Source: Phoronis australis
Taxonomy: Eukaryota; Animalia; Phoronida
Direction: 5' to 3'
Assembly: GCA_002633005.1 (NCBI GenBank)
Contig: NMRA01000341.1
Span: 203,474 to 267,473, forward strand
DNA length: 64,000 bases
Shown here: positions 6,524-35,935 of the stretch, piece by piece
Position numbering within the stretch: the stretch's first letter is position 1
How the letters are laid out: each line of letters opens with the position of its first letter
Made by a program: the position numbers and the translations under genes
Notes under the pieces: model-generated
The model's input: only the letters and a program-made list of their open reading frames with translations
What the model was told of the DNA's origin: nothing
Database searches by the model: none

Positions 6524-6680
6524 GTATGCCAACTACTACAAAGAGGACGGCGTTGATTACAGAACCTTGTATAAAGCGTACGGTCTTCGGTTTTATGTGC
6601 AGGTCACAGGTCGGGGTGGCAAGTTCAATTTTGTTCCATTCCTCATCAATGTTGGCAGTGGTCTCGCCCTCCTGTCCATT
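6524..6680 (+). CDS. P2RX: P2X purinoceptor exon (KAYG motif, start of TM2)
   Basis: ttccag|...|gtaagt; (R)[52 protein letters not shown]. Confidence 0.97.
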
Positions 6681-7170
6681 GTAAGTCTGTCCGCGTGTTT
6701 GTAAGTCTGTATGCCATTTTGTTAATACACTTGACTGTAAGTCTGTCTTCCAGGTTGTTAGTCAGTCTACCTGTTTGTAAGTTTGCCTGACTGTTTTGCA
6801 ACAGTGTCTGCCTGTTTGTAAGTCTGTCTGCCTGTTTGTAAGTCTGTCTAGTGTTCTTATGTCTATCTCTTTCTCTGGCAGTGAATCCATTTACTCAATG
6901 TTCAGCGTACATTTTTGTCTGAACCATGTATTTCTATTGTCTAGTCTGTTTCTGTCTTTACATGACTGTATGTTTGTCTGTCTGCCTTAATTTTGTTTCA
7001 GTTCTTACTTTATTTTATCTACAAGCAATAAGTATTTAGAGATACTTTGTGTGTTGTTATATCTTATTTGTGAAGATTTTTTTATGGGAACATTGCTTGA
7101 GATTTCAACGCTCTGTAAATTGATTTTAAAGTTTATACGCTATTCACTTGATTTAGTTATTTTATTGTAG

Positions 7171-8078: not shown

Positions 8079-9049
8079 TTTTATGCTTCCACATATTTAT
8101 GTGTGGATGCATTAAGGTGTTGTCTCTGTTTGTCCGCCTGTTTCGGCGTGCGGCATACGTTTCTTTATCAACAAAACCCAACGAAAATCTCGAGATGGGC
8201 CGAAAGCTAGTGATATAGTAACTTTACATGATTATTCATTGTGTTTATGTCATATTCATCAAGATAGGTTCGTTTCTGTACTGACTGCCGGTGTGCCCCT
8301 AAGTGGCAGTTTTATTTTTTGTTTGCCTCCGTTACTTCAGAGCTCTCTGATGGATTCTCATGAAACTTAGGAGATAGGCATAGCGTCGACACTTGCTCTC
8401 TTTTGGATGGAGTGACTTCTGACAACTACGATTACCATATACTTTTTTCGTTTTCCTTTGTATATTCAGAGTTCCTTCGCTGATTTTCATGTAACATGAT
8501 GGCAAATTGCCGTCAGAATCTTCCCATTTTTGTGCGCACTCTTTACTGTATATGACCTAGTGGCCATTTTTGTTATTTAATTTTGAGTTTGGTTGTTGGT
8601 GTTTGCCTCTCTTTTGGCTAAATCAAACTGAGAGTCATTAATGTCCCAAGTGGAAAGAGCATGGCTGACGAGGATTTTTGAACACATTCAACTGCTGTGG
8701 CACCCCCTTGTGGTAGTTTGATTTTTTTACCAGGCCAAATTTCATAGAGGTCCATCAAGGCTCAATGCAAGTTCCTTGATGTATCTTCAAGAAATTTGAT
8801 GTGACTACAGCTGACATGGATACCGAGACAAACCCGACTATGCCAGAGTCACCTAGTGGCAATTTATGTTTTTGTTTGCATTTTCCTTGATGTCTGCCAA
8901 GTTCCTTCATGGATGTCTATGAAATTTTGTAAATAAATTACTATTACTATAAATACTACTGCTATTATTAAATTTACTATTCACGGGAATGAGTAAAATA
9001 ATGATTATGTCTTGTATCTGCTCTGTATGTGATGCACATGGTGGGTGCA
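8079..9049 (+). mobile_element. Helentron-associated (HINE/DINE-like) non-autonomous element, interrupted at its 3' hairpin by the Gypsy element (resumes about 13715-13725)
   Basis: 5' end TTTTATGCTTCCACAT...GTGGATGCAT followed by TGTCCG-like microsatellite; internal CCTAGTGG-type monomers; 3' GCACATGGTGGGTGC. Same architecture at 34230-35935 and 30290-31515. Confidence 0.55.
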
Positions 9050-9792
9050 CTACCGGACCGATATCCACGGCTCGCGCTACTCGATTGCTTTCTGCGATTC
9101 GCTGTACCGGGCTGCTTCAGGTTTTCGGGGCAGTCGCGAATAAAATGTCCGGTCTGGTTACAGCGATAACATCGTCGATTGTCCTTAAACGCAGGCTGCC
9201 TCGGCTCGGCGACAAAATTCACACTTCCTGATTTCATAACCAAAGCATCCTTATCATGATACGACCTCACTATCTGGACAAGTTTTTCTAGAGTCAAGTC
9301 TGTTTCATTATACAGCTTGCTCTTCAAGTGTTTGTTCGTAATGTATGTGAGTACTTTGTCCCTTACTTGATTATTTGTCTCTGTATAATCTGTCACTCCG
9401 TCAACCGTTCGCTCATACGAGCAGTCCTTCACTAAAATCTTCAACCGTGTGATGTATTGATCGATCGTCTCTCCAGTCTGGGGCTCACACAACATGAACT
9501 TTTGTCGTGCCATTGGTATGTTCTTTTTACATTTAAAATGCTTATTGAGCGCCGCAACGGCAGACTCGTAAGTGTTTCCCGTATCTTCGAGTGTTCTAAA
9601 AACGTCCCTGACATCCGGTCCGCCCAAGTGTAGCAACAGAGCTCGCTTCTGATTTCCGTCCGATACCCCAGACGCCGCGGTGAACAAGCCGAACTCGTCG
9701 ATCCAGCGCTTCCATTTTTGCTCGATATTCTCGGGCTCGCCCTCCACACTAAACTGTCCAACTGCCGGTAAACCTCCGAGACAAACAGCCAT
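9050..9792 (-). CDS. gag: Gag (truncated after the CCHC zinc knuckle)
   Basis: WKRWIDEF...RALLLHLGG...QTGETIDQYITRLK...CYRCNQTGHFIRDC; the ORF runs into host DNA below 9050. Confidence 0.9.
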
Positions 9793-9814
9793 CACTTATA
9801 TATGTTCGGAGTTT

Positions 9815-9827
9815 ATCCTCGTCGCCA
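9815..9827 (-). other. Primer-binding site complementary to the tRNA-Ser(GCU) 3' end
   Basis: Minus strand TGGCGACGAGGAT, 6 nt from the LTR; tRNA-Ser(GCT) ends ...ATCCTCGTCG-CCA. Confidence 0.8.
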
Positions 9828-9833
9828 AAATGG

Positions 9834-9959
9834 TGTCGTATTCTCTAATAAAACAAGTCTCTGATAAAGTGAACTTTCTATTCAGCCATCTTGCCACGTA
9901 GTATTCTCTACTCAAAAACGAGGATTCACAATAACCCGGATGTAGTCACAAACACTACA
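9834..9959 (-). repeat. 5' LTR (126 bp)
   Basis: TGTCGTA...CACTACA, identical to 10004-10129; adjacent to the PBS. Confidence 0.9.
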
Positions 9960-10003
9960 TATGTGATGCACATGGTGGGTGCATATAAACATGCGCTGTA
10001 TGT

Positions 10004-10129
10004 TGTCGTATTCTCTAATAAAACAAGTCTCTGATAAAGTGAACTTTCTATTCAGCCATCTTGCCACGTAGTATTCTCTACTCAAAAACGAGGATTCACA
10101 ATAACCCGGATGTAGTCACAAACACTACA
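10004..10129 (-). repeat. 3' LTR (126 bp)
   Basis: Identical to 9834-9959; follows integrase and a weak PPT (AAGTTGGTGGCAGA). Confidence 0.9.
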
Positions 10130-10494
10130 TCTGCCACCAACTTATTTAAGAAAAAACACTTCATACTTTAAAGCAGAAACTTATCAAACAACAAAACATT
10201 AACATGGACTTTTTAAACAAACTTTATGACTATAAAGTCAAGTTGGAAAGAGATGGAAATATTTCAGAAATTAAAATCATTTGTAAAATAGATGCAGTAG
10301 TTAACAATTAGTTTTTTTTTTACTGACTAATCGACTGGAACTATAACGTGAAACATTTTTAGTTTTAACTAGGAAAACACATAGTCACTAAGGTGTTTTG
10401 GCATCGAAGGGACACGGGATGACCTACGAAGTGTAGGAGTGTCAGAGGACACTTGCTCAGAAGAAGGTTCTGACTGAGACGGGGCACGGGAGGG

Positions 10495-13400
10495 TCAACG
10501 AAGTGTCGGAGTGTCAGAGGACACCTGCTCAGAAGACGATTCTGATTGAGACGGGGAAACGGAGGTCTTTTCAGGTACCACAGCATCCTCGATAATAGGC
10601 AAGTTCTCATTGGAAGCAACCTCAGGAACTTTGGATTCCACTGAATCAGGAACATACTTCTTCAAATGGGCAGAGTTTCTCATCTTCTGGACACCATCTT
10701 CCCCCTCAATAATGACAGAGTTACCAGTCTTTTGAGTCACTTTGTATGGAGTCGATTCGAAACTTGGTGACAGTTTGTCTTGACGCCTGTGCTGCTTTAA
10801 CAATACGAAATCGCCTTCAACTATGTCAGAGGCCTCAGCATGTCTTTTGGAGTCAGCGTACTCCTTCTGCATCAGCTTTGCCTTAGCATCCCGGTCATAC
10901 AGTAATGATCTCCATTCGGCCTCTACAAGGGGGTGGTCTGATACAGGGTATAGCAAGGGCAACTTATCACGTAACTTTCGGTTCATAAGGAGTTCTGCTG
11001 GACTCATGCCTGTCACTGTGTGGGGTGTCACCCTATACTGGAAAAGGAAATTGGAGAGTTCTGTTTTCCAGCACTTCTTTTCAATATGCGATGTTCGGAT
11101 GACTTTCAAAATAGTCTCATTGCACCGTTCCACGGAACCATTAGAGCAAGGCCAGTATGGGATTCCCGTCAGATGCTCTATTGCTGCATTCTCCAAAAAA
11201 TCATCGAACTCTTTTGAAGCAAATGGTGGGCCATTGTCACCTCTTATTCTCCATGGTAGACCATGTGTCTGGAATATAGCCGTAAGAGCGTTGGTCACGT
11301 GTCTAGCATCTGTCTTAGGGAGTTGGATCACTTCCGGCCATCTGGAAAAATAATCTACAACAACTAGCAAGTGGTGTCCCGTAGGTATCTCCAACAGGTC
11401 GACAGCTAGGTCTATCCATGGCCCTTCGGGAAGTTCTGTTGAACGGATTGGTTCAGGATGGGAGGTTTTACCAAGCAACTGGCACGGGTGACAACTCTTA
11501 ATGAGAGATTCAACATGTTTGTCTATATCTGGCCACCAAACCTTGCTGCGGAGCCTGGATTTCGTTCGAACAATCCCCTGATGTCCATCATGCGCCAAGT
11601 TCAAAACCCTACGCTGCAATACCTTAGGCACAGCTATACGACTGCCTCGCATAACAACATGTCCCATAAGCCATAGCTCATCTTTTACAGCTCTGAAAAT
11701 AGGCTGTTTTACAGAAGAAAAATCACCAGAAGTAATGGCTGGTGACAGCTCATTGAGAATAGCATCTTCTGCTGAACATCGCTCCATTTCCTTCGCAGTT
11801 ATCGCACCTGGTGAAGCGTCAAGGACAGCACTATAAGCAAATAAATCATCATCTCTACGTGCAGTCTGCGAATCAGTTATTGGGAGTCTGCTCAAAGCAT
11901 CAGCTTTGTTCAATCTGCCACTGATGTGCATGACAGTAAACCTGAACTGCTGAAGGTACAACAGCCATCTCTCAATTCTAGCAGATGGTGGTTTTGAAGA
12001 TCGAGAACCCAAAACGACTATCAATGGCTTGTGGTCGGTGCACACCTCAAATTCAATGCCGCTTAGGTACAGTAAGAACTTCTCACATGCCCATCTGACT
12101 CCCAGTGCTTCGCGTTCAAACTGTGAGTATCGCTGTTCAGTTGGAGTCAGCTTGCGGCTAGCATAATAGACAGGTTGATACTGACCATCAGCCTGTTCCT
12201 GTTCCAGGATAGCACCTAAACCAACCGGTGAAGCGTCTGTTACCACTCTTGTATTGGCACCTTGTTGAAAAAATGCCATAGTTGGGGCTTCAGTGAGCAT
12301 TTTTTTAGGGTAAGGAATGCCTTCGTATGCTTCGAAGTCCAACACCACTCAGTGTCCTGCTTGGTCAAGTCGTACAGACAACTAGTTACTGAGGCAAACC
12401 CTTTTACGAACCTTGCAGAAAACTGTGCCGTTCCAAGAAAACTTCTGGGTTCTGACTTGTTGGAAGGCACTGGTGCACCTTGGATGGCCTTCTTATCGTC
12501 GTCCAGTTCCATGCCCTTTCCTGTTAGGACTATACCCATGAACTTCATCTGCTCGACGCCAACTTCACACTTTGCCTTGTTGAGAGTAAGACCATGGTCG
12601 GCAAATCTACGGACTACATTTTCCACCCTCACTGCAAGTTGCTCGTGATCACTGGCCACCACCCTAATGTCATCGTGAAGGTTGTGGACACCGTCGAGAC
12701 CACTGAGAATCTGACTGATAATGTGCTGAAATTTTTCTGTAGCCATGTTTACCCCAAACAGGAGACGCTTATACCTATAAAGACCAGAGGGTGCTGCAAA
12801 AGTTGTGATATCCCTAGAGGCAGGATGCAACTCAATCTGGTGGAACGCCATGTTAAGATCAAGTTTTGCAAAAACACGTGCATCTGAAATCTCTTGAAGT
12901 GTCTCTTCGACAGTAGGGACAGGGTGTCGCTCCCTCACTATAGCCTCATTCGCCCTGCGCATATCCACGCAAATTCTCACATCGCCATTCGGCTTCTCTA
13001 CAACAACCAGAGGATTTACCTAAGAAGTGGGAGTATTGACCTTCTCAATGATTCCAAGCTCCTCTAGTTCTTTCAACTTAGCAGTGACTTTCTCACGTCG
13101 GCTGAAGGGCACTCGTCTCAAGGGCTGGATTACTGGCTGAACACTTTCATCAATGTGGAATTTAAGTTGGTAGTCATTTAACCTACCAATACCATTGAAA
13201 ACCATGGGATACTTCATACACAACTGACCAAGTAAGTCGTTGACCTGACAGGCCACACCTATTCGCAACAGGTCAAGAGCTTCACTTGTGGATTTACTGA
13301 GCAGGGTTGGTGCATCCCCATCTACTATGAAAAATAGAGCATCACAACATTTGTTATTCTCAGGGACAATCAATTTTAGATTACATTTGCCAATGAGTGG

Positions 13401-13714
13401 CAAAGATTTGGTCGAGGCGTAGGGGAATACTCTACTACTACCATGTGGTTTAACAGTAACATCTTTGCAATACATTTCAAATGACGTTTTAGAAATTAGA
13501 TTGCAAGTAGAACATGAGTCAATAAGCACTGGCATAGTTACATAATTATTAACAGAAATATCTACAGGCTCAATGTCAATATTGGCGTTGACACCATATG
13601 CGTAGTAGTTGTTCTCAGGCTCCTCATCAGCTTCAGCCTCTTCTCCAGTTGTCTGATTGACATGGTAATGTCCCTTGCGATTGTTAGCACCACCAAATCT
13701 GTGTCCACTGAGCA
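10495..13714 (-). pseudogene. pol: pol (protease, RT, RNase H, integrase), disrupted
   Basis: PR VLIDSCST; RT RICVDMR...LDLNMAFHQ...LHDD; RH VTDASPVGLG...YSQFEREAL; IN HDGH...CHPC, D,D-E. In-frame TAG (likely TGG) at 13020-13022 and a frameshift in the T-run near 12300. Confidence 0.93.
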
Positions 13715-13792
13715 TTGTTCTTGTATTTGAGGCTGCAATGCACTAATTCGAATTATAATGATAGATTGTGTTTATGTCGACTTTGTTTTCAG

Positions 13793-13843
13793 GCATCACA
13801 GCCTCCTCGTGTCAAAGATGATGAGCCGTTATTGACTGACTAG
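13793..13843 (+). CDS. P2RX: P2X last coding exon
   Basis: ctttgttttcag|GCA TCA CAG...ACT GAC TAG = ASQPPRVKDDEPLLTD*; phase 0 matches the previous exon; donor gtaagt at 13859. Confidence 0.78.
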   Translation, partial: ASQPPRVKDDEPLLTD

Positions 13844-18737: not shown

Positions 18738-18965
18738 TCTAACCCAAACCCTAATTCTTCGAACAAAAAAACTTGTCCCTGATCCTAACGATAACGAAAA
18801 CACTAACCCGAACGATAACCCCAACCTTAACCTTAACGCTAACACTAACCCTAATCTGACCCTAACCGTAACCCTAACCCTGACTCAAGGAAAACTCTAA
18901 CCAAAACCAGAAACCCCAAACAGTAACCCTATCCGTAACCCTAATGGAAGCCCCAAACCCAACTT
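18738..18965. repeat. Degenerate (CCCTAA)n telomere-like tract
   Basis: AACCCTAA, ACCCTAACCGTAACCCTAACCCTGA and variants with 6-bp periodicity. Confidence 0.75.
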
Positions 18966-18989
18966 GAAACCCCCAATAGAAATAAAGAA

Positions 18990-19880
18990 ACTCATCGACC
19001 CCGTGCACCTCCCATGGTTAGCAAGTTGAAAGAAACTTCAAGGGTTAGTTTTCGGCAATAGGCGCAGGAAAGCCTGCAATTTTGGCCGCAGCTACCCCAA
19101 AGAGCGCAAAATTGCGCAAGTCTCTTCTCCGCTCTCTGGTAAAACGTCTACTGATGACAATTAAACTAAACCTTGAAACTCGTTTTTTTTTCTACTCCGC
19201 GACCCCTTGCGCCTCCCGTTGTTCGCAAGTTGAAAGAAACTGGACATTCAACGTTCAGTGTTTCGGCAATCGGCGCACGAAATCGGTTTATTGCTGACAA
19301 ACTAACAGCTGAAAGTCGGATTTTTCCACTAGCCGACCCCGTGACCCTCCCTTGGTTCGCACAAAAGAAAGAAACTGAACTTTCAACTTACAGTTTTTTG
19401 ACAATCGCCGCAGGAAGTCGTGCGCGTTTGATCTACCCTCTGGTACTAAAAGGTCTATTGCTGACAAACTAACCGTTGAAAGTCGGGTTTTTTAGAACTC
19501 CCCGACACCATGCACAATCCTTGGTTCGCAAGTAGAAAGGAACTGTACTTTACCGGTTAGTTTTTCGGAAATCGGCGCACGACTTCGTTCAATTTTGGCC
19601 TGCCCTAACGAGCGCGAAAATGCTCGAGTTTCTCTGCCCTCTGGTGAAAGGTCTGTTGCTGACAAACTACCCGATGACCAAAGTCGGTTTTTTTCCACAC
19701 ATCGACCCCGTGCACCTTCCTTGGTTCGCAAGTTAAAAGAAATTGGACTTTCAAAGGTTAGTTTTTTGGCAATCGGCGCACAAATGTCTGGCCTACCTCA
19801 ACCAGCGCGAAAATGCTGTCGCGAGTTTTTTCGCCCTCTGGTAAAAGGTGCATTGCTGACACACTACCGTTGTCACCCAG
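18990..19880. repeat. Diverged satellite, about 5 monomers of 135-205 bp
   Basis: CGACCCCGTGCACC...TGGTTCGCAAGTTGAAAGAAACT...GGCAATCGGCGCA recurs at about 18995, 19199, 19333, 19502 and 19702. Confidence 0.85.
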
Positions 19881-23178: not shown

Positions 23179-23990
23179 NNNNNNNNNNNNNNNNNNNNNN
23201 NNNNNNNNNNNNNNNNNNNNNNNNNNNNNNNNNNNNNNNNNNNNNNNNNNNNNNNNNNNNNNNNNNNNNNNNNNNNNNNNNNNNNNNNNNNNNNNNNNNN
23301 NNNNNNNNNNNNNNNNNNNNNNNNNNNNNNNNNNNNNNNNNNNNNNNNNNNNNNNNNNNNNNNNNNNNNNNNNNNNNNNNNNNNNNNNNNNNNNNNNNNN
23401 NNNNNNNNNNNNNNNNNNNNNNNNNNNNNNNNNNNNNNNNNNNNNNNNNNNNNNNNNNNNNNNNNNNNNNNNNNNNNNNNNNNNNNNNNNNNNNNNNNNN
23501 NNNNNNNNNNNNNNNNNNNNNNNNNNNNNNNNNNNNNNNNNNNNNNNNNNNNNNNNNNNNNNNNNNNNNNNNNNNNNNNNNNNNNNNNNNNNNNNNNNNN
23601 NNNNNNNNNNNNNNNNNNNNNNNNNNNNNNNNNNNNNNNNNNNNNNNNNNNNNNNNNNNNNNNNNNNNNNNNNNNNNNNNNNNNNNNNNNNNNNNNNNNN
23701 NNNNNNNNNNNNNNNNNNNNNNNNNNNNNNNNNNNNNNNNNNNNNNNNNNNNNNNNNNNNNNNNNNNNNNNNNNNNNNNNNNNNNNNNNNNNNNNNNNNN
23801 NNNNNNNNNNNNNNNNNNNNNNNNNNNNNNNNNNNNNNNNNNNNNNNNNNNNNNNNNNNNNNNNNNNNNNNNNNNNNNNNNNNNNNNNNNNNNNNNNNNN
23901 NNNNNNNNNNNNNNNNNNNNNNNNNNNNNNNNNNNNNNNNNNNNNNNNNNNNNNNNNNNNNNNNNNNNNNNNNNNNNNNNNNNNNNNNNN
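23179..23990. other. Assembly gap (812 N)
   Basis: Run of n. Confidence 1.
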
Positions 23991-24458
23991 AGGGCGTCTA
24001 CATTAGTGCAAGGGCGTCTACATTAGTGCAAGGGCGTCTACATTAGTGCAAGGGCGTCTACATTAGTGCAAGGGCGTCTACATTAGTGCAAGGGCGTCTA
24101 CATTAGTGCAAGGGCGTCTACATTAGTGCAAGGGCGTCTACATTAGTGCAAGGGCGTCTACATTAGTGCAAGGGCGTCTACATTAGTGCAAGGGCGTCTA
24201 CATTAGTGCAAGGGCGTCTACATTAGTGCAAGGGCGTCTACATTAGTGCAAGGGCGTCTACATTAGTGCAAGGGCGTCTACATTAGTGCAAGGGCGTCTA
24301 CATTAGTGCAAGGGCGTCTACATTAGTGCAAGGGCGTCTACATTAGTGCAAGGGCGTCTACATTAGTGCAAGGGCGTCTACATTAGTGCAAGGGCGTCTA
24401 CATTAGTGCAAGGGCGTCTACATTAGTGCAAGGGCGTCTACATTAGTGCAAGGGCGTC
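23991..24458. repeat. Perfect 20-bp tandem array, at least 23 copies
   Basis: (AGGGCGTCTACATTAGTGCA)n with no spacers. Confidence 0.98.
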
Positions 24459-27192: not shown

Positions 27193-29294
27193 CAGGGCTC
27201 AACACTAACGGTTGCCCGATTGCCCGTGTACATGTAGATTTTGCGTCGGGCAAGTGGNAATCCCAATAGCCTTTGCGCACCCTAATTTCCGGACATGCGC
27301 AATCGTTAAATCGATTCGGTTGCAACTCCGCTATTCAGGGCTCAACACTAACGGTTGCCCGATTGCCCGTGTACATGTAGATTTTGCGTCGGGCAAGTGG
27401 AATTTGAAAAGTACTTGCCCTATGGGCAAGTTAAAAAGCTGGCCATATAGGCAAGCAGATCCTAAGATTGTCTGCTTGACATTTGCTCCGAAGTAACGAA
27501 CCCCGACACAAGCCTAAAAACCATCGAAAAAAGCTCGTGTGGCCGTCAAAGAAACTCCCGTATTCGAATGAGCACTGAAAGGAAAATAGAACGAGTGTGA
27601 TGCAGCATGCACAGATGACACCCGCGGTCAAATCCTTTTGATTCTCTGAACGTGCCCTGCAGTTTCTGAATAAGTTGTCACGTGATACTACTGATCGTCT
27701 GCACTCTGGCAAAACGTCTAAACAAGGAAGCCGCCCAGATGCTAAAAAAACGAGTTCAGGAAGAATCAAAGCAACAATATGAAACGAAAAGAGTGCGGGG
27801 ATGGTTTCCGTCATGGGACGTTAGGTTTCCTGGCCTGCGAGACAGTGAACAAGGGATGACGTATGATTTTTGCCGGCTTTTACCCATGTACCGAGCTGGA
27901 AGCACCGCGTGTTGGCGGATGTAAGTCGTACAGATAAGCGCAAAAGCTAAAAAGTGAATGATTGACCACATATTTTCTACACTACACAGCAGTTTTAAAG
28001 GCCTGGTATTTATTCAGGGGGAATTCCAAAGGAAAATCTTATGAATTCCCGGCTCCCGCTGGTGACTCCCGAAAGAAGNTAATTATTTATTGAAAATAAA
28101 AGTATATGTGGCATTATTATATGTTAAAATTTGATTTTAATTTAATACAAGGTTCTGATGACCAAAACTGTGCAAGATTTTTACGGATAGCAAAAATTCA
28201 AATTCAGGTTAAGCAAAGTTTAATGCATGAGGGCGTATAAACTAATGAATACACAGAAGTGTCTAGAGTTCATGTCCTAGCTCATTTCGGTGCCTGTGAA
28301 CGTGATACAATGGTTTTGATACCATAGTTACTCTTCTAATTTGTCTCTCTAACGTTTTGACACACCTTATAAATAAATGTTCTATAAGAAGAATCGTTAA
28401 AAAATAGCAACTCATAGCATAGACCCTATTCACGCCAACAGGAGACGCGTTCCAAAACGAGGCTCGCTACGATAGCTCTGGTGGCTCATCCGCGTATGTA
28501 CTCCGCGTCGCTCGAACACTAAGCTAGAAAAAATACGGACACTCTGTTTTACAATCCCTAAGGACGTTGGGATTTGGAAGCGTTGGGTCCTTGCCATACG
28601 CCACGACGAAGGAAAATATGTCCGTGTAAAATTTATAACTGTTTTCGAATCATAATTTGTCGCATCTCGGACTGGATGCCGCCAAAGCAACGAGGACCGG
28701 AGAATCTTCGGCCAGCCAGGCTGTGTTTTCATGACTATGGGTTGAAGCGCGATGCATTTTTCTTTACAAAAAGGACTGGGCCCTCAATCCCTCAATTTTG
28801 GGGCCAGATATCGGCCCTATTCCCCTCTCAAAAATATTGAAAAATCACACGAAATTTCCGGCCACGAGGCCTAAAAATCCCCTTTAGTAATTGTGATTGA
28901 AAATTTCTCTCCAACGGTTCAAATCACCTGTGGCCACAGAGGTGACAGTTTGAAAATGTACAAAATCATAGGCGGATTTAGAGGGGGGCAGGGGCCCGCT
29001 CTCCCCCCCTTGACTGCCGCAAGCAAAATAAACCAGCAAAGCGTGAAGTGGGAGGTGACTTCTGAGTTCGAGCTAGGACCGGTAGTGGACAAGGGAGGAA
29101 AACACGCTCCGTTTTATTTTTTTTAGTCCNGGCTCAGCGCAGGCAGCCCTACGGTAACACATTACCTAGGTGTGCACATGCACGGTGCTATTTGGGATTG
29201 TACTTGAGGCAAGTGAATTTGTTGTTCGGGCAAGTAAAAATTTCAACTACTTGCACGAAGGGCAAGTGGCTTAAAAAGTTAATGTTGAGCCCTG
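27193..29294. mobile_element. hAT5-like non-autonomous DNA transposon (5-bp TSD) with nested fragments and single-N joins
   Basis: TIRs CAGGGCTCAACACTAAC / GTTAATGTTGAGCCCTG; TATAC on both flanks; left end duplicated at 27336. Confidence 0.8.
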
Positions 29295-29897
29295 TATACC
29301 TAGGGCAAACTTACTTATTTGTTCTGGACAACACACTTTCCAATATATCATGTATTAAGTATTAATAACAAATGGATGTAATGTCAGACACTGGGACTAC
29401 TAAGCACATGAACACATCATATTGATATCTACTCCTTAAAGTTAGTTACTGAAAGTAACTTACTTTGTACAATCCAATCCAGTCCTTGTCATTCACACTA
29501 GCGCCCTCTTTGAACCGGTAGTAACATTTGACATCTTTCTTAGTAATCCACTGATAGATACTCTTGAATGTAACATCCGGAGGAGAGGGACTACGAAGAA
29601 CCTGCAAGAATTATAAAACACCTTCCTCTTTACCAAGAAACACCTTAATTTTGCTGATGAAGTGCTCAAAAATGTATTGTCCAAATTTCACATTTGGAGA
29701 CTGTACAGATCACTGTCAGTGTCCATCTGTTCATTGGACAAATAAGGGCACAGAGAGAAAAACATGCTAAACTTAAGGAGAAAATGTCCAACTAGCAAAG
29801 AACCATCTTAGGAGATAGAGAACAAATTACTTCAGTCAACAATTCATTGAACTTTTTAGACACACTGAATACACCACAAGAGCAAAGCAGCTGACAT

Positions 29898-30072
29898 GAC
29901 CCCACTGTGAGCATTACATATGACCCACTGTGAGCATTACATATGACCCCACTGTGAGCATTACATATGACCCACTGTGAGCATTACATATGACCCCACT
30001 GTGAGCATTACATATGGCCCAACTGTGAGCATTACATATGACCCCACTGTGAGCATTACATATGACCCCACT
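29898..30072. repeat. 23-24-bp minisatellite, about 7 copies
   Basis: TGACCCCACTGTGAGCATTACATA units. Confidence 0.95.
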
Positions 30073-30289
30073 CCTCAATAGGAACACATGTCACCATTCA
30101 TAATGATTGCTCAACAAGATTGGAGGATACTGGCAGGCAGACAGTAAAAGACACAAAACCAATAGAAAGCAATGTAGGTCAAATCCATCTAGAACAGGGC
30201 CAGTGTTGTCTGCGTTATAGTAATTTGCCAAATTATAAGAACTTGTTCCATCAAGGAACTTGGTAGATACATTGCACATAATTATATAA

Positions 30290-31515
30290 GGCAAACTCAA
30301 AGGAAAACAAAAATTGCCACATGTTCACTTGACTCTGCAGTGGACGTCTTTGGCCCAAAATCCACGTCAGTTGTACTCTGCTCTACAGAAACACATAAAG
30401 CTCCATCAAGGAACTTGTATTGAGCCACTGGCAAAACAATGCCACAAAAAGGCGCTATAGCAGATGGACCTGTTCAAAAATAGTCGGCAGCCACGCACTT
30501 CCCACAAGTACACAAAAATATATATATGCCAATTTTCATAACTATCTACAGTCTGTGTGATTTGGCTGACAGAGGGGCAGATGCCAAAACTGAAAGCCAA
30601 AAAATGATAAATATGGCCACTAGGTGGCATATAATACGTCATATCAATCAGAAAATGGGAAGATGTCATCGTCTATTTAATGGAAACAAATTTGTCAAGT
30701 TTCATAAAAATCTTTGAAGGAGCTCTTTAAGATGCTGTCTCATTAAAAATGTAAATATTTAAATTTGTAGCAAGCACCACCTAGTGACTTCCTGCAGAAC
30801 TGTGTGTACAAGTAAAGCCAGGAAAAGAATCAATTTGTAAATAAATTGTGGTTTTAAAGAAAACGCCGCAACTGATACACCAAAAAACAAGTGAGAACAT
30901 ACATTTACGGTAATTCAAAATCAGTTACCACTTTCATAGAAATACATTATTTGCTAAAAATTTTTAAAAAGTTCCTACAAATTGTTCATGTGATACAGAC
31001 ACAGACACAAAAAACAAAACTGCCACTGGGAGGCACTATAGTAGTTGAAACCCACTAAAAATCATCTTTAATTGCCCTGTTCCCAATAAGAACAAAATCA
31101 CCTAACCATCCTTAAAGTGGTTTAGCCGATGGATAGACAGACACCAGAAACAAGATTAAAAAAATTGTAAAAACTGCCACTAGGTGGCACAGAATAGGTC
31201 AAATACATCTAAAAAATATTGCCATTCCTAACAGATAGTTATTTGCTAAATTTCTCGAAAATTCATTACGGACCTCCAAAGACACAGAGGTCAACATAAA
31301 AAATAGGTAAGCCAATATCAGGCTGACTGGTAGTACTGAGAATCCATCTGGAAATTTGCTTATGCCATGCCACCCCATCCATGAAAGGAGCATGTCTGCA
31401 AAATTTCACAAGCATCCATTTAGGGGCTTTAAGAGATACAGTGGTGGCTGCCGCATGCCATCTAGATGATTACGACGGTATAATGCATCCACATATAAAT
31501 ATATGGGTGCATAAA
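30290..31515 (-). mobile_element. HINE-like element (reverse orientation)
   Basis: End ATGCATCCACATATAAATATATGGGTGCATAAAA is the reverse complement of the 34230 and 8079 5' ends; GCCACTAGGTGGCA motifs at 30616 and 31176. Confidence 0.55.
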
Positions 31516-33495
31516 AGCTTATCAATCTTATACTATTGTTACTTGGTATGCTGGACTGAAATTAAATTCCTAGATCTTCGGAGACGTCTCATCTCCTTCA
31601 AACCAGTGAATGAGCTTTTTATCTGCATAGGGGTAGAGGAGGCTATCTAAGTCCACAGGGGTGGATCCAGGATTTTGAGTTAGGAGGGGGCCAGGGCAGA
31701 GTATTAGTCAGGATTTTGGCCGTCAGACATTCGCACCCCCAAACTGCCAAATGGTATCTGGTAGAATTTTAGGGGGGCCAGGGCCCCCTTGGGCCCTAAA
31801 AGCTCCTCTTAATAAGCTAGGTGGCACCACATTCAAATTGCCAATGCAGCAAGACATTATCCACATGACCGGAGTTCCCGCCACTAGTAGTTGTCAACAT
31901 AATCACATCGAAGGAGATAAGACGTCTCCAGGTAAGTAGGAATTGGGTAAATGCAGTACAGCAGACCAGGTTCAAGTAACAATAGAATGCATTACCTGGA
32001 TGGCTCAAGAACTATATTTCATTATAAATCTTCTAAATGACAAACAAACACTCCTCTCAAATTTTTGCCAAAACATTGATTTCAACTTGATATCTTGCAT
32101 AGTACGTAGGTTATATGTGATTTCTGACCTAATTGAGAAAATGAAGACTATACAATGTAAATTGGCCTTTGAAAGTCCCAACTGTATGCCTCCAAAGCAA
32201 TATAGATATCAGCTAGTTGAGGAATGCATGTAGGTTGGGCTGCATTCCCTTTAGCAAGTACGTTGCAAGTTTGGCAATTTATAAAAAATTATTGAACCGG
32301 AAGTCACTTTCAAGATGGCGGCTGTGCCGCATGTTCGCACAGTTACAATCGCTCTGGTGTCGTATTTTTAACGGGAAGAGCAAATGACTTGAATTTTTGC
32401 ATGTGGATTCCTGGTGTCGCATTTTTAACGGGAAGGGGAAATGACGTGAATTTTTGCATGTGGATTCCTTGAAGTATGGCCTTTCAAAAATTCTGCGAGA
32501 GCGTATTTCTCAGACTTACCGTTTTCGAGTTATTTGACTTTGAATTTCAAAAAAAACGGCAAATTTTCAATTTCTCGAAATTTTTTTGGATTTTTGCCAA
32601 ACTACCACTTTAGATAGAGTTTTGAACGGGCTTTCAGAAGATATTTTCCATTTTGCGCTACGACGTCTACTTTTTGAATTAGGATTCGAGATTTTCGGAT
32701 ACCGTTGTTCCTTTGGTCACCTATGCAAGCACGCAGTTGGCTGGCTTTCAGTTCACTTTGTTTTGGTTATGCCTAGTTGACCCAGACTGACCCAGCCAGC
32801 ACTGTTCTACTGTAGACTGGACCGTCATGTTGCGCCATCTATTGTTCTTTATTGTAGTTGATTGTATGCTCTCCATTTGATTTCTTCGTTAGTCATATGA
32901 ATGTTATCGTGTTATTCATAATTGCCGTCTTGATTGTCATGATTGTCGTCGTCTCCCGCATCGTCGTCTTTTCGATTAATTCTGCCAAGTGTCGCTCCTC
33001 CGAGCGCTCTCGTTTTTATGTCTGTTTCTTTCCATTAATTTACTTATCTTCCAAAACTACACAAAGAATCGTCACAAAATTGGGCAGATAAGTTCCTTGT
33101 GAGGTGTGAGCGGCCAACATAAAATTTCTGAAAATCTACCTGTGACGACTGCTGGAGGCAATTTTAGTTTCCTTTGGATCTGCCTCAATAGCTACCAAAG
33201 ATCTTCATGAAACTTGGGTTATGTGATGTGGATGAGGTGAACATACCTGAGTTTATTTTTAGGCAGATTCGGCTGATGTGGTGCCTCATAGTGGCAATGT
33301 TTTTTGCTTACATCAATATCTCCCATGTTCCTTGATCATTCTAAATAAATGTCTGTGATTGCAGTGCAGTGCTTTTACTAGCTGTTCCACTATTCAATGA
33401 TAATCAAACTTCACATTTCATCTCTAATAGCAATGTTTATCCAAGCTTTTTCTGTTAATCTGTTGTACGTCACTACACATGATTGGTTATTCCAG

Positions 33496-34229: not shown

Positions 34230-35935
34230 TTTTATTATGCACCCACATATTTTTATGTGGGTGCATATTGCCGTCATCTCTGTCTGGACGACCGGATCTT
34301 ATTAAAATTTAGCAACAGAGGGTGACAAGTTTCGGACTGACCCGAATACCGTTGTGCCCCCTAGTGGCAATTTTAGTTTTTTACGTTACTTTGCTTCTGT
34401 ATCTTCAAATGTCCTCAACCGATTTTCATGAAATTTGGCACATAGACATCTACTAATGAGGTAACTCTATCCTTTCGTTTTTGGATGGATTCGAGGCATT
34501 TTGTGCCATCTAATGGCCATTTTTACTATTTTCGAGTCCATTTTTGGTGTCCGCCCCCCTATCAACCAAACCACTCTAAGGATGATGGCAAAAATTGGCA
34601 TGTATGTTTTTACTATGAAGAAGACAGTTGACGATGATTTTCCGACGACTTCGACTACTGTGGGGCCTCCTAGTGGCAGTTTGGTTTGTTTTTGCGCCCA
34701 TGGCGGTATCTCCTAAATGCTCTACAGGATCTTTATTAAATATAAAAAATGTTTTCATGTGAAGTTGACAACAGACGACGACGACTTTCGGACAGATCGG
34801 ACTACAGGTGTGTCCTCTAATGGCAATTTTATTTTTTTACGTTTACATGTGTATCTTCAAAGGTCCTCAATGGATTTCTATAAATTTTGGCTCATAAGCA
34901 TCTATTATTGAGATGACGCTATCCTCCCATTTTCGGATGGATTCGAGGTATTTTGCGCCACCTAGTGGCCATTTTTACTGTTTTTGAGTCTGTTTTTTTG
35001 GCGTCCGCTCTCCATCAACTGAACCACTCTGAGGATGATTGTTAAAATTGGCATGTATGTTCTTACTATGAAGAGGACGGGTAATGATGATTTGCCGATG
35101 ACTTTGACTACTGTGGCGCCCCCTAGTGGTAGTTATGTTGGTTTTTGCGCCCATGGCTGTATCTCCTAAATACTCTACAGGATTTTTATTAAATGTAGCA
35201 AACGTGTATATATGAAGTTAACAACGGAAGACGATGACTTTCAGATGGGTTCGACTAACATTGCCCCCTAGTGCCAATTAATCATTTTTTCCTCTGTTTC
35301 TCTGAAGTTTCTGGACGAATTTTCATGAAATTTGTTAAATAGCTTTCTTTTCAAGAAACGGTAACATTTTTCAGTTTTCAAATGGATTCGACATATTTTG
35401 CGCCTTCTAGTGACCATTTTTACTGTTTTCCAGTCTGTTTTTGCCGTCCGCCCTCTGTCAACCAAACTCTTAGGATGATTGTGAAAATTGGCTTATATAT
35501 TCAATTTGTTAGTGTGAAGAGGACGGTTGACAATGATTTTCCGGCTTCAATTACTGTGGTGCCTCCTAGTGGTAGTATTTTGTGCCCTTAGCTGTATCTC
35601 CTAAGCCCTCTGCAGAATGTTTATTAAAGTTAGCATGTGTATTTATCTGACATTGACAACGGAAGACGACAATTTTCTGACAGATCCGATGAACCTTTGT
35701 CTCCTAATGGCAATTTCATTTTTTTCCGTTTTGCTAAATTTTCTTGATGGATTTTCAGGAAATGTGGTAAATAGCTTTCTTTTAAAAAATGGTGACATTT
35801 TTCAGTTTTTTTGATGGATTTGAAATATTTTGCACTATCTAGTGGCCATCTTTATGATACAAATAAACACCCTAGAAGCACACCATTTGTGGTACATTCG
35901 TGGGTGCATTTCAACACTCTGCGTTGCTCTCGTTA
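34230..35935 (+). mobile_element. HINE-like element with an internal ~150-bp monomer and ~450-bp higher-order array
   Basis: 5' TTATGCACCCACAT...GTGGGTGCAT; 11 monomers, each with a GYGCC.CCTAGTGG-like motif; 3' GTGGGTGCATT...CTCTCGTT. Confidence 0.7.

What the first reader, a model, noticed from the sequence alone, without database searches (positions are those of the whole stretch)
9019..13725. Circularly permuted Gypsy element: LTRs in the middle, joined through target-site DNA, next to an apparently empty copy of its own insertion site
Seen in sequence: the element reads PR-RT-RH-IN-LTR-[44 bp]-LTR-PBS-gag. It is opened in the Gly/Arg-rich linker between the zinc knuckle (...RGYRSGS) and the protease (SGHRFGGANNRK...), and the two halves look complementary. 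The spacer (9960-10003) is TATGT-gatgcacatggtgggtgca-tataaaca-tgcgctg-TATGT, i.e. right flank, filler and left flank with both copies of a 5-bp TSD. The same flank occurs with a single TATGT at 9019-9049 (tgctctg-TATGT-gatgcacatggtgggtgca), just outside the left break. GCA is shared at both outer junctions (9047-9049 and 13712-13714). Established: a normal 2-LTR circle has no host DNA or TSD at its junction. Inference: a chromosomal provirus plus ~40 bp of flank was circularised, reopened in gag and inserted about 20 bp from its target (eccDNA re-integration or MMBIR template switching between filled and empty alleles). The spacer break and the insertion point fall on the same GGGTGCA^ position at the base of the 3' hairpin of a Helentron-like element, so a site-specific rolling-circle nick may be involved (speculative).
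Basis: partly seen in the sequence, partly recalled or inferred. Interest (0 to 1): 0.78.

Follow-up and report, generated by a model that had tools for sequence, protein, structure and literature searches.

The report
Retrotransposon flipped inside-out at own site
One dead copy of a jumping gene sits with its two end-repeats in the middle and its coding region split between the outside ends, likely because it popped out of the chromosome as a ring, broke at a new point and was patched back into the same spot, a rare repair accident rather than a new kind of element.

Summary
The permuted layout is real. Two identical 126-bp LTRs (9834-9959, 10004-10129) flank a 44-bp host spacer, and contigs from the likely source study bridge all four junctions. 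A contig of a second, normally ordered copy joins 13710 to 9046 with only 2 letters between, so the halves are complementary. Corrections: the spacer holds no filler; it is one 39-bp unit of the host Helentron-like (HINE) 3' end plus the TSD, so it does not break at GGGTGCA^ and the rolling-circle nick idea loses its support. Read depths (about 24 at each junction, about 49 in flanks) suggest the animal carries both this form and a normal provirus lying between tandem host units. Best reading: pop-out through those units, a break in the gag-protease linker, end-joining back into the vacated site (0.5). Serial template switching (0.2) or another phasing of two alleles (0.2) remain open; no long reads or second assembly were reachable. 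Circle-mediated permuted insertion is known; return to its own site was not found in 7 literature searches. The scan's earlier permuted-LTR plant families are a different thing.

The parts
8079..9049 (+). Host HINE/Helentron-like non-autonomous repeat, 5' part: 5' subTIR-like ATGCTTCCAC (8083-8092) with nearby inverted repeat, body related to the 453-bp central repeats of other copies, up to the 3' subTIR
   Evidence: layout compared with PMC4067079 and PMC7492417 passages
9019..9049 (+). Left host unit: TGCTCTG, one TATGT, 19 bp ending in the 3' subTIR; cut at 9049; TGCA 9046-9049 is shared with the element (4-bp microhomology)
   Evidence: intact-order contig re-enters at 9046
9050..9833 (-). 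5' half of element: PBS-like TGGCGACGAG (9827-9818), gag ORF from 9792 with zinc knuckle, ending in the Gly/Arg linker; matches residues 1-249 of relative P0001 at 92%
9834..9959 (-). 5' LTR, 126 bp, TG...CA
9960..10003 (+). Spacer: one 39-bp host unit (9960-9998: TATGT, 3' subTIR at 9975-9984, start of terminal stem-loop region) plus the second TATGT (9999-10003); the likely circle-closure point
10004..10129 (-). 3' LTR, identical to the 5' LTR
10130..13710 (-). 3' half of element: linker remainder, putative protease, RT, RNase H, integrase, 3' UTR, purine-rich tract before the LTR; matches residues 261-1355 of P0001 at about 90%; broken by an in-frame stop near 13020, a frameshift near 12261-12306, and carries a 72-bp duplication at 10395-10538
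13711..13724 (+). Right junction (13711 unassigned) and remainder of the host repeat's 3' terminus (13712-13724), homologous to 35922-35933
   Evidence: local score reached by 0.4% of about 20000 random window stretches; family read consensus behind 9990

Best explanation
This is a single dead Gypsy-type LTR retrotransposon whose two halves are swapped around its LTRs, likely because it was looped out as a ring through short host repeats on either side, broken once in the gag-protease linker, and end-joined back into the site it had left. Steps: (1) shown in part: the element had inserted normally, with a TATGT duplication, into the 3' end of a HINE-like repeat that likely carried tandem 39-bp units; (2) inferred: recombination or annealing between the units left and right of the provirus closed a ring of provirus + one unit + TSD, which is the spacer; (3) shown: the element is opened at one point, the two halves missing only 2 letters against a normally ordered copy; (4) inferred: microhomology-type end joining (TGCA on the left) put the opened ring into the broken array, deleting at least 12-15 bp of host unit. 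No integrase or element-specific machinery is needed and the product cannot transpose.
For: All four junctions are bridged by contigs. Halves abut within 2 letters; two independent truncations would fall within 2-10 bp of each other with probability 0.001-0.005. Spacer is colinear natural host sequence. X1 depths: four junction-specific contigs 30.0, 19.6, 27.0, 21.1 (mean 24.4); seven shared segments 37-56.9 (mean 49.4), flanks 48.5 and 49.3; LTR start 87.8, about 4 copies, matched by its two entries 37 + 53. So a second element copy also has the host unit before its LTR and a variant unit (2 differences) after the other LTR. Of 12 ways to walk the inferred graph as two alleles, only 1 gives alleles of equal length: the window form plus a textbook provirus. 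Microhomology of 4 or more arises in 1.9% of random joins. Tandem units at this end recur in the family: a 9049-to-9019 joint in X1 and a 24-bp x 7.5 array at the same end of the copy at 29896-30072. Precedent for circle-mediated permutation: PMC7188851, PMC7450558; for double-cut fragments circularising or being re-inserted at breaks: bioRxiv 10.1101/2020.06.23.168138.
Against: Short-read contigs cannot phase across the 126-bp LTR or along the halves; 11 of the 12 graph walks differ from the window. Two edges of that graph (left flank to unit-LTR; variant unit to right flank) are inferred from depth, not seen. X1's right-flank contig 13681 onward is unbroken, whereas an allelic second form should enter it; so the normal copy may lie in a paralogous host repeat, or contig simplification removed the path. 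The 23 letters that follow the variant unit were not displayed. The intact-order contig differs from the window at 3 listed sites within 9085-9109, more than expected for a very recent derivative. Depths are noisy. Nothing shows a free circle existed.
Confidence: 0.5

Rival explanations
1. Serial template switching on the same filled chromosome: synthesis stalls at the first unit, jumps to the linker through TGCA, copies gag half and LTR, slips back through the 39-bp unit, copies the other LTR and pol half, and is forced off where it meets its own entry point. Same product, no free ring.
For: 4-bp microhomology at the left join and a small complex change at the right join; three clustered differences near the left join would fit error-prone synthesis; units fold into small hairpins. 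PMC7450558 (Discussion read) states junction scars cannot separate end joining from MMBIR/FoSTeS.
Against: Needs three switches, and the return to within 2 bp of the entry point rests on an untested collision argument of mine.
Confidence: 0.2
2. The junctions are real but the window is a chimeric or collapsed walk through two derived alleles: for example a gag-half allele plus a full-and-pol-half tandem, or a permuted dimer plus a solo-LTR allele.
For: 11 of 12 graph walks are of this kind; the assembly is a short-read scaffold with an 812-bp gap and a 65-bp duplication beside a single N; no contig spans the whole stretch.
Against: Every such walk still needs two complementary breaks at the same linker point plus the LTR-unit-LTR junction, and makes both alleles derived; window-type junction depths (30, 27) group apart from normal-type ones (19.6, 21.1).
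Confidence: 0.2
3. A Helentron Rep protein nicked the host repeat's 3' end on both sides of the nested provirus and drove its excision and re-entry.
For: Both host breakpoints lie in the 3' subterminal signals: the left at the edge of the 3' subTIR, the right in the terminal stem-loop region (layout).
Against: The spacer does not break at GGGTGCA^; the ring lacks the host repeat's 5' end; the provirus itself sits there, so any local event must have breakpoints there; one case only; no autonomous partner examined.
Confidence: 0.06
4. Two independent insertions at TATGT of neighbouring units (double insertion), each later truncated.
For: Double insertion leaves target DNA between tandem copies (bioRxiv 10.1101/158386, passages) and would give exactly this spacer.
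Against: The truncations are complementary within 2 letters, probability 0.001-0.013 for windows of 2-27 bp; LTRs are identical.
Confidence: 0.03
5. Integration of a reverse-transcription 2-LTR circle or an autointegration product.
For: LTR-LTR in the middle is the layout such circles would give.
Against: The junction holds 44 bp of host repeat bounded by both TSD copies; the outer joins are not at LTR ends and show no 5-bp duplication.
Confidence: 0.01

Closest known systems
eccDNA-mediated (circular-intermediate) duplication with permuted order: Takahashi and Innan 2020, PMC7188851 (part 1 of 4 read); Chicote et al. 2020, PMC7450558 (abstract and Discussion read); the cattle and yeast cases only as cited there
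   Same: Segment order AB becomes BA in the same orientation; short microhomology and 1-13-bp indels at the opening and insertion points.
   Different: Those are distant, non-tandem duplications closed without homology; here the cargo is one LTR element, closure likely used a 39-bp direct repeat, and the product sits at its own site with no copy-number gain evident.
Double-cut end joining in the mouse germline, bioRxiv 10.1101/2020.06.23.168138 (passages read)
   Same: Closely spaced breaks release kb-sized fragments that circularise or are re-inserted at breaks with short microhomologies.
   Different: Locally re-inserted pieces in the passages read were 16-709 bp and inverted; no link to meiotic hotspots can be tested here.
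Tandem TE dimers by double insertion or LTR recombination, bioRxiv 10.1101/158386 (passages read)
   Same: Head-to-tail LTR junction containing target DNA.
   Different: Total content is one element, split at a single point, not two.
HINE / DINE-1 non-autonomous Helentrons, PMC4067079 and PMC7492417 (passages read)
   Same: Host repeat has 5' subTIR with nearby inverted repeat, 3' subTIR followed by a palindrome, central tandem repeats in sister copies.
   Different: This is the host of the event; no autonomous partner was identified.

Membership tests
Ty3/Gypsy-type LTR retrotransposon | Paired TG...CA LTRs, 4-6-bp TSD, PBS and purine tract | tested here: met
   126-bp identical LTRs, TATGT beside both outer LTR ends, PBS-like and purine-rich motifs seen; PBS not matched to a tRNA
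Ty3/Gypsy-type LTR retrotransposon | Order gag, protease, RT, RNase H, integrase | tested here: met
   gag/zinc knuckle, RT, RNase H, integrase by Pfam and colinear with P0001; protease assigned by position only, no Pfam hit
Reverse-transcription 2-LTR circle insertion | LTR-LTR junction without host DNA or TSD | tested here: not met
   44 bp of host repeat with both TSD copies
Circular-intermediate (eccDNA) reintegration | Same-direction permuted order with a single opening point | tested here: met
   13710-to-9046 joint with 2 letters between
Circular-intermediate (eccDNA) reintegration | Donor in original order identifiable | tested here: inconclusive
   Junctions of a normally ordered copy seen at depth about 20; allele versus paralog and phase not resolved
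Circular-intermediate (eccDNA) reintegration | Free circle existed | not testable with these tools
   Needs circle-enriched sequencing
HINE (non-autonomous Helentron), host repeat | subTIRs, 5' inverted repeat, 3' palindrome | tested here: met
   ATGCACCCAC / GTGGGTGCAT pair perfect in the copy at 34237-35909, 2 mismatches in the host copy; 3' stem-loop weak in the window copy (-1.2 kcal/mol), clearer in read consensus
HINE (non-autonomous Helentron), host repeat | Autonomous Rep/Helicase partner sharing the subTIRs; TT insertion without TSD | not tested
   No whole genome held; genome index unavailable
Family-wide permuted-LTR Gypsy elements of plants and algae (scan notes) | All copies begin and end inside the LTR at an internal palindrome | tested here: not met
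   Here the opening is in the coding region and normally ordered copies exist

The most novel reading that the evidence does not exclude
The 3' ends of HINE/Helentron repeats are recurrent excision-and-return sites: their tandem subterminal units, cut by the Helentron Rep or a structure-specific nuclease, release nested retrotransposons as rings, precisely emptying the site, and recapture them in permuted form, so that many such inside-out elements exist in this and similar genomes.
Probability: 0.07. Interest if true: 0.8.

Novelty: new variant of a known kind. Interest (0 to 1): 0.4.

Why it matters
It is an unusually clean, base-resolved natural case of a segment being circularly permuted in place, probably with its unrearranged progenitor still present in the same animal, so the circle versus template-switch question could be tested at one 4.7-kb locus. 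It also shows a way in which an LTR element can be precisely removed or killed without leaving a solo LTR, and a structure that LTR finders would miss. It is a one-off mutation in a dead element with no evident function; importance would rise only if the pattern recurs at HINE ends.

Tried and rejected
No whole genome is held. search_genome_index did not complete, so no second assembly, orthologous empty site or paralogous donor could be examined. Metagenome scans found nothing: 0 matches for the host motif; 79 pattern hits, 0 confirmed relatives for gag. Run X6 (raw Hi-C reads, another sample, about 4% read) covered the locus too thinly: no joint listed, no evidence either way. The 9049-to-9019 joint in X1 may belong to this locus or to a paralog; not used in the graph. 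My first orientation of the host repeat (interrupted end as 5') was wrong and was corrected. Misassembly of a simple filled/empty heterozygote was rejected because it cannot create the bridged gag-linker junctions. Literature searches for the same structure found no LTR element permuted at its own site; most subscription papers are not in that library, and no supplements were read. Scan look-ups by place, words and sequence found nothing on this locus.
Full report
Anatomy. The element lies on the minus strand. Two 126-bp LTRs at 9834-9959 and 10004-10129 are identical and read TG...CA; the 44 bp between them begin and end with TATGT. Left of them lie a PBS-like motif and a gag frame (PNMA-like and zinc knuckle) that stops at 9050; right of them lie a purine-rich tract, integrase, RNase H, RT and a putative protease stretch up to 13710 (Pfam found 0 families in that last 229-aa stretch). 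The pol half has an in-frame stop near 13020 and a frameshift near 12261-12306, so the copy is dead. The first 24 nt of the spacer recur at 9026-9049: 2 matches in the window, none in 100 shuffles.

Are the junctions real? Four runs of one study hold 92-96% of the sampled words and are probably the assembly's source. Counting a contig as bridging only with 31 or more letters on both sides: 9049/9050 is bridged by X3 9019-9352 (X2 has 30 letters); LTR-to-spacer by X2 9834-10033; spacer-to-LTR by X4 9960-10049 (X1 and X2 have 30); the right junction by X2 10185-13820 and X3 11465-13820. No contig spans the whole stretch. The one independent sample, X6, was too thin to say anything.

Do the halves abut? 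An X1 contig of depth 19.6 goes from 13710 to 9046 with 2 letters between, so a normally ordered copy exists, the window's halves lack only those 2 letters, and TGCA at 9046-9049 belongs to both host and element. A natural relative, P0001 (1356 aa, 93% identical to the gag half; best of 10 hits among 1161 candidates), matches the gag half at residues 1-249 and the pol half at 261-1355; the gap is largely one more unit of a 9-residue linker repeat in P0001. The break falls at a boundary of that degenerate repeat (16 of 24 nt alike). Two unrelated truncations would fall within 2 bp with probability 0.001, within 27 bp 0.013.

The host. The element interrupts a HINE-like repeat running from about 8079 to 13724 on the plus strand. 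An uninterrupted relative lies at about 34231-35935, with perfect ATGCACCCAC/GTGGGTGCAT subterminal repeats and 453-bp central repeats, and another at about 29876-31516. Spacer positions 9962-9998 align colinearly with 35888-35926, and 13706-13724 with 35915-35933 (the latter score reached by 0.4% of random stretches). Reads of other copies continue the same way. So the 'filler' is host sequence, the spacer is one 39-bp host unit plus a TSD, and it does not break at GGGTGCA^.

A second form. In X1, four junction-specific contigs have depths 30.0, 19.6, 27.0 and 21.1; seven shared segments, flanks included, have 37-56.9 (mean 49.4); the LTR start has 87.8, matching its two entries, 37 from gag and 53 from the host unit. 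The unit-to-LTR contig starts exactly at 9960 at twice the depth of the LTR-to-unit contig, so a second copy of the element also has this unit before its LTR; a further contig, seen in X1 and X3, joins the LTR end to a unit with 2 differences and then 23 letters that were not displayed. The simplest reading is a normal provirus between tandem host units, at the same depth as one haplotype. Against this being the allele: X1's right-flank contig is not broken by a second entry, and the intact-order contig differs at 3 listed sites near 9085-9109. With two edges assumed, the graph has 12 two-allele walks; 1 of 12 is window form plus normal provirus, and it alone gives equal lengths. More diverged family copies are present too (15 differences in 222 nt; an LTR with another flank at depth 59) and add noise.

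Mechanism. Most likely the direct-repeated units closed a ring of provirus, one unit and TSD; the ring, or the fragment it came from, broke in the linker; and end joining put it back between the first unit's subTIR and the repeat's terminus, losing at least 12-15 bp of host. This explains why an apparently empty site lies 20 bp away: it is what excision leaves, or simply the upstream unit. Microhomology of 4 or more occurs in 1.9% of random joins. Ring formation, timing and enzymes are inferred. Serial template switching predicts the same sequence; PMC7450558 (Discussion) notes such scars cannot separate the pathways. A Helentron nick is not excluded but its stated support is gone.

Comparison. 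Same-direction permutation through a circle is described for human duplications (PMC7188851, part 1 of 4 read; PMC7450558), which cite cattle and yeast cases that I did not read. Circularisation and re-insertion of double-cut fragments is shown in mouse germline (bioRxiv 10.1101/2020.06.23.168138, passages). Tandem dimers with target DNA between them are common (bioRxiv 10.1101/158386, passages). Seven searches found no LTR element permuted at its own site. Earlier scan notes on plant Gypsy families opened inside the LTR (5 listed, unchecked) describe a family-wide trait, unlike this single event.

Verdict. Real junctions, a single complementary break, a known class of repair accident in a local variant. 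New variant of a known kind; interest 0.4.

Noticed in passing
window 34231-35935: Apparently complete HINE-like repeat with perfect 10-bp subTIRs and about three 453-bp central repeats; same family as the host of the Gypsy element.
   Followed up: partly
window 29876-31516: Another HINE-like copy on the opposite strand with a 24-bp x 7.5 minisatellite (29896-30072) at the same subterminal position where the host has its 39-bp unit.
   Followed up: partly
window 10395-10538: 72-bp tandem duplication (81-88% alike) in the integrase tail of the element; contigs show further family copies about 7% diverged here.
   Followed up: no
window 9047-9100 and 13687-13710: The gag-protease linker is a degenerate 27-bp repeat; relative P0001 carries one more unit.
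   Followed up: partly
window 23179-24458: 812-N gap followed by a perfect 20-bp x 23.4 array; probably gap-edge or collapsed satellite.
   Followed up: no
window 27193-27400: 65-bp exact duplication beside a single N at 27258, likely a scaffold-overlap artefact; single Ns also at 28079 and 29130.
   Followed up: no
window 18799-18881: Degenerate AACCCT (telomere-like) array of 14 copies next to a region of about 200-bp-period repeats at 18989-19868.
   Followed up: no
window 6679-6849: GTCT-rich 20-bp tandem array, resembling the microsatellites described near HINE 5' ends.
   Followed up: no
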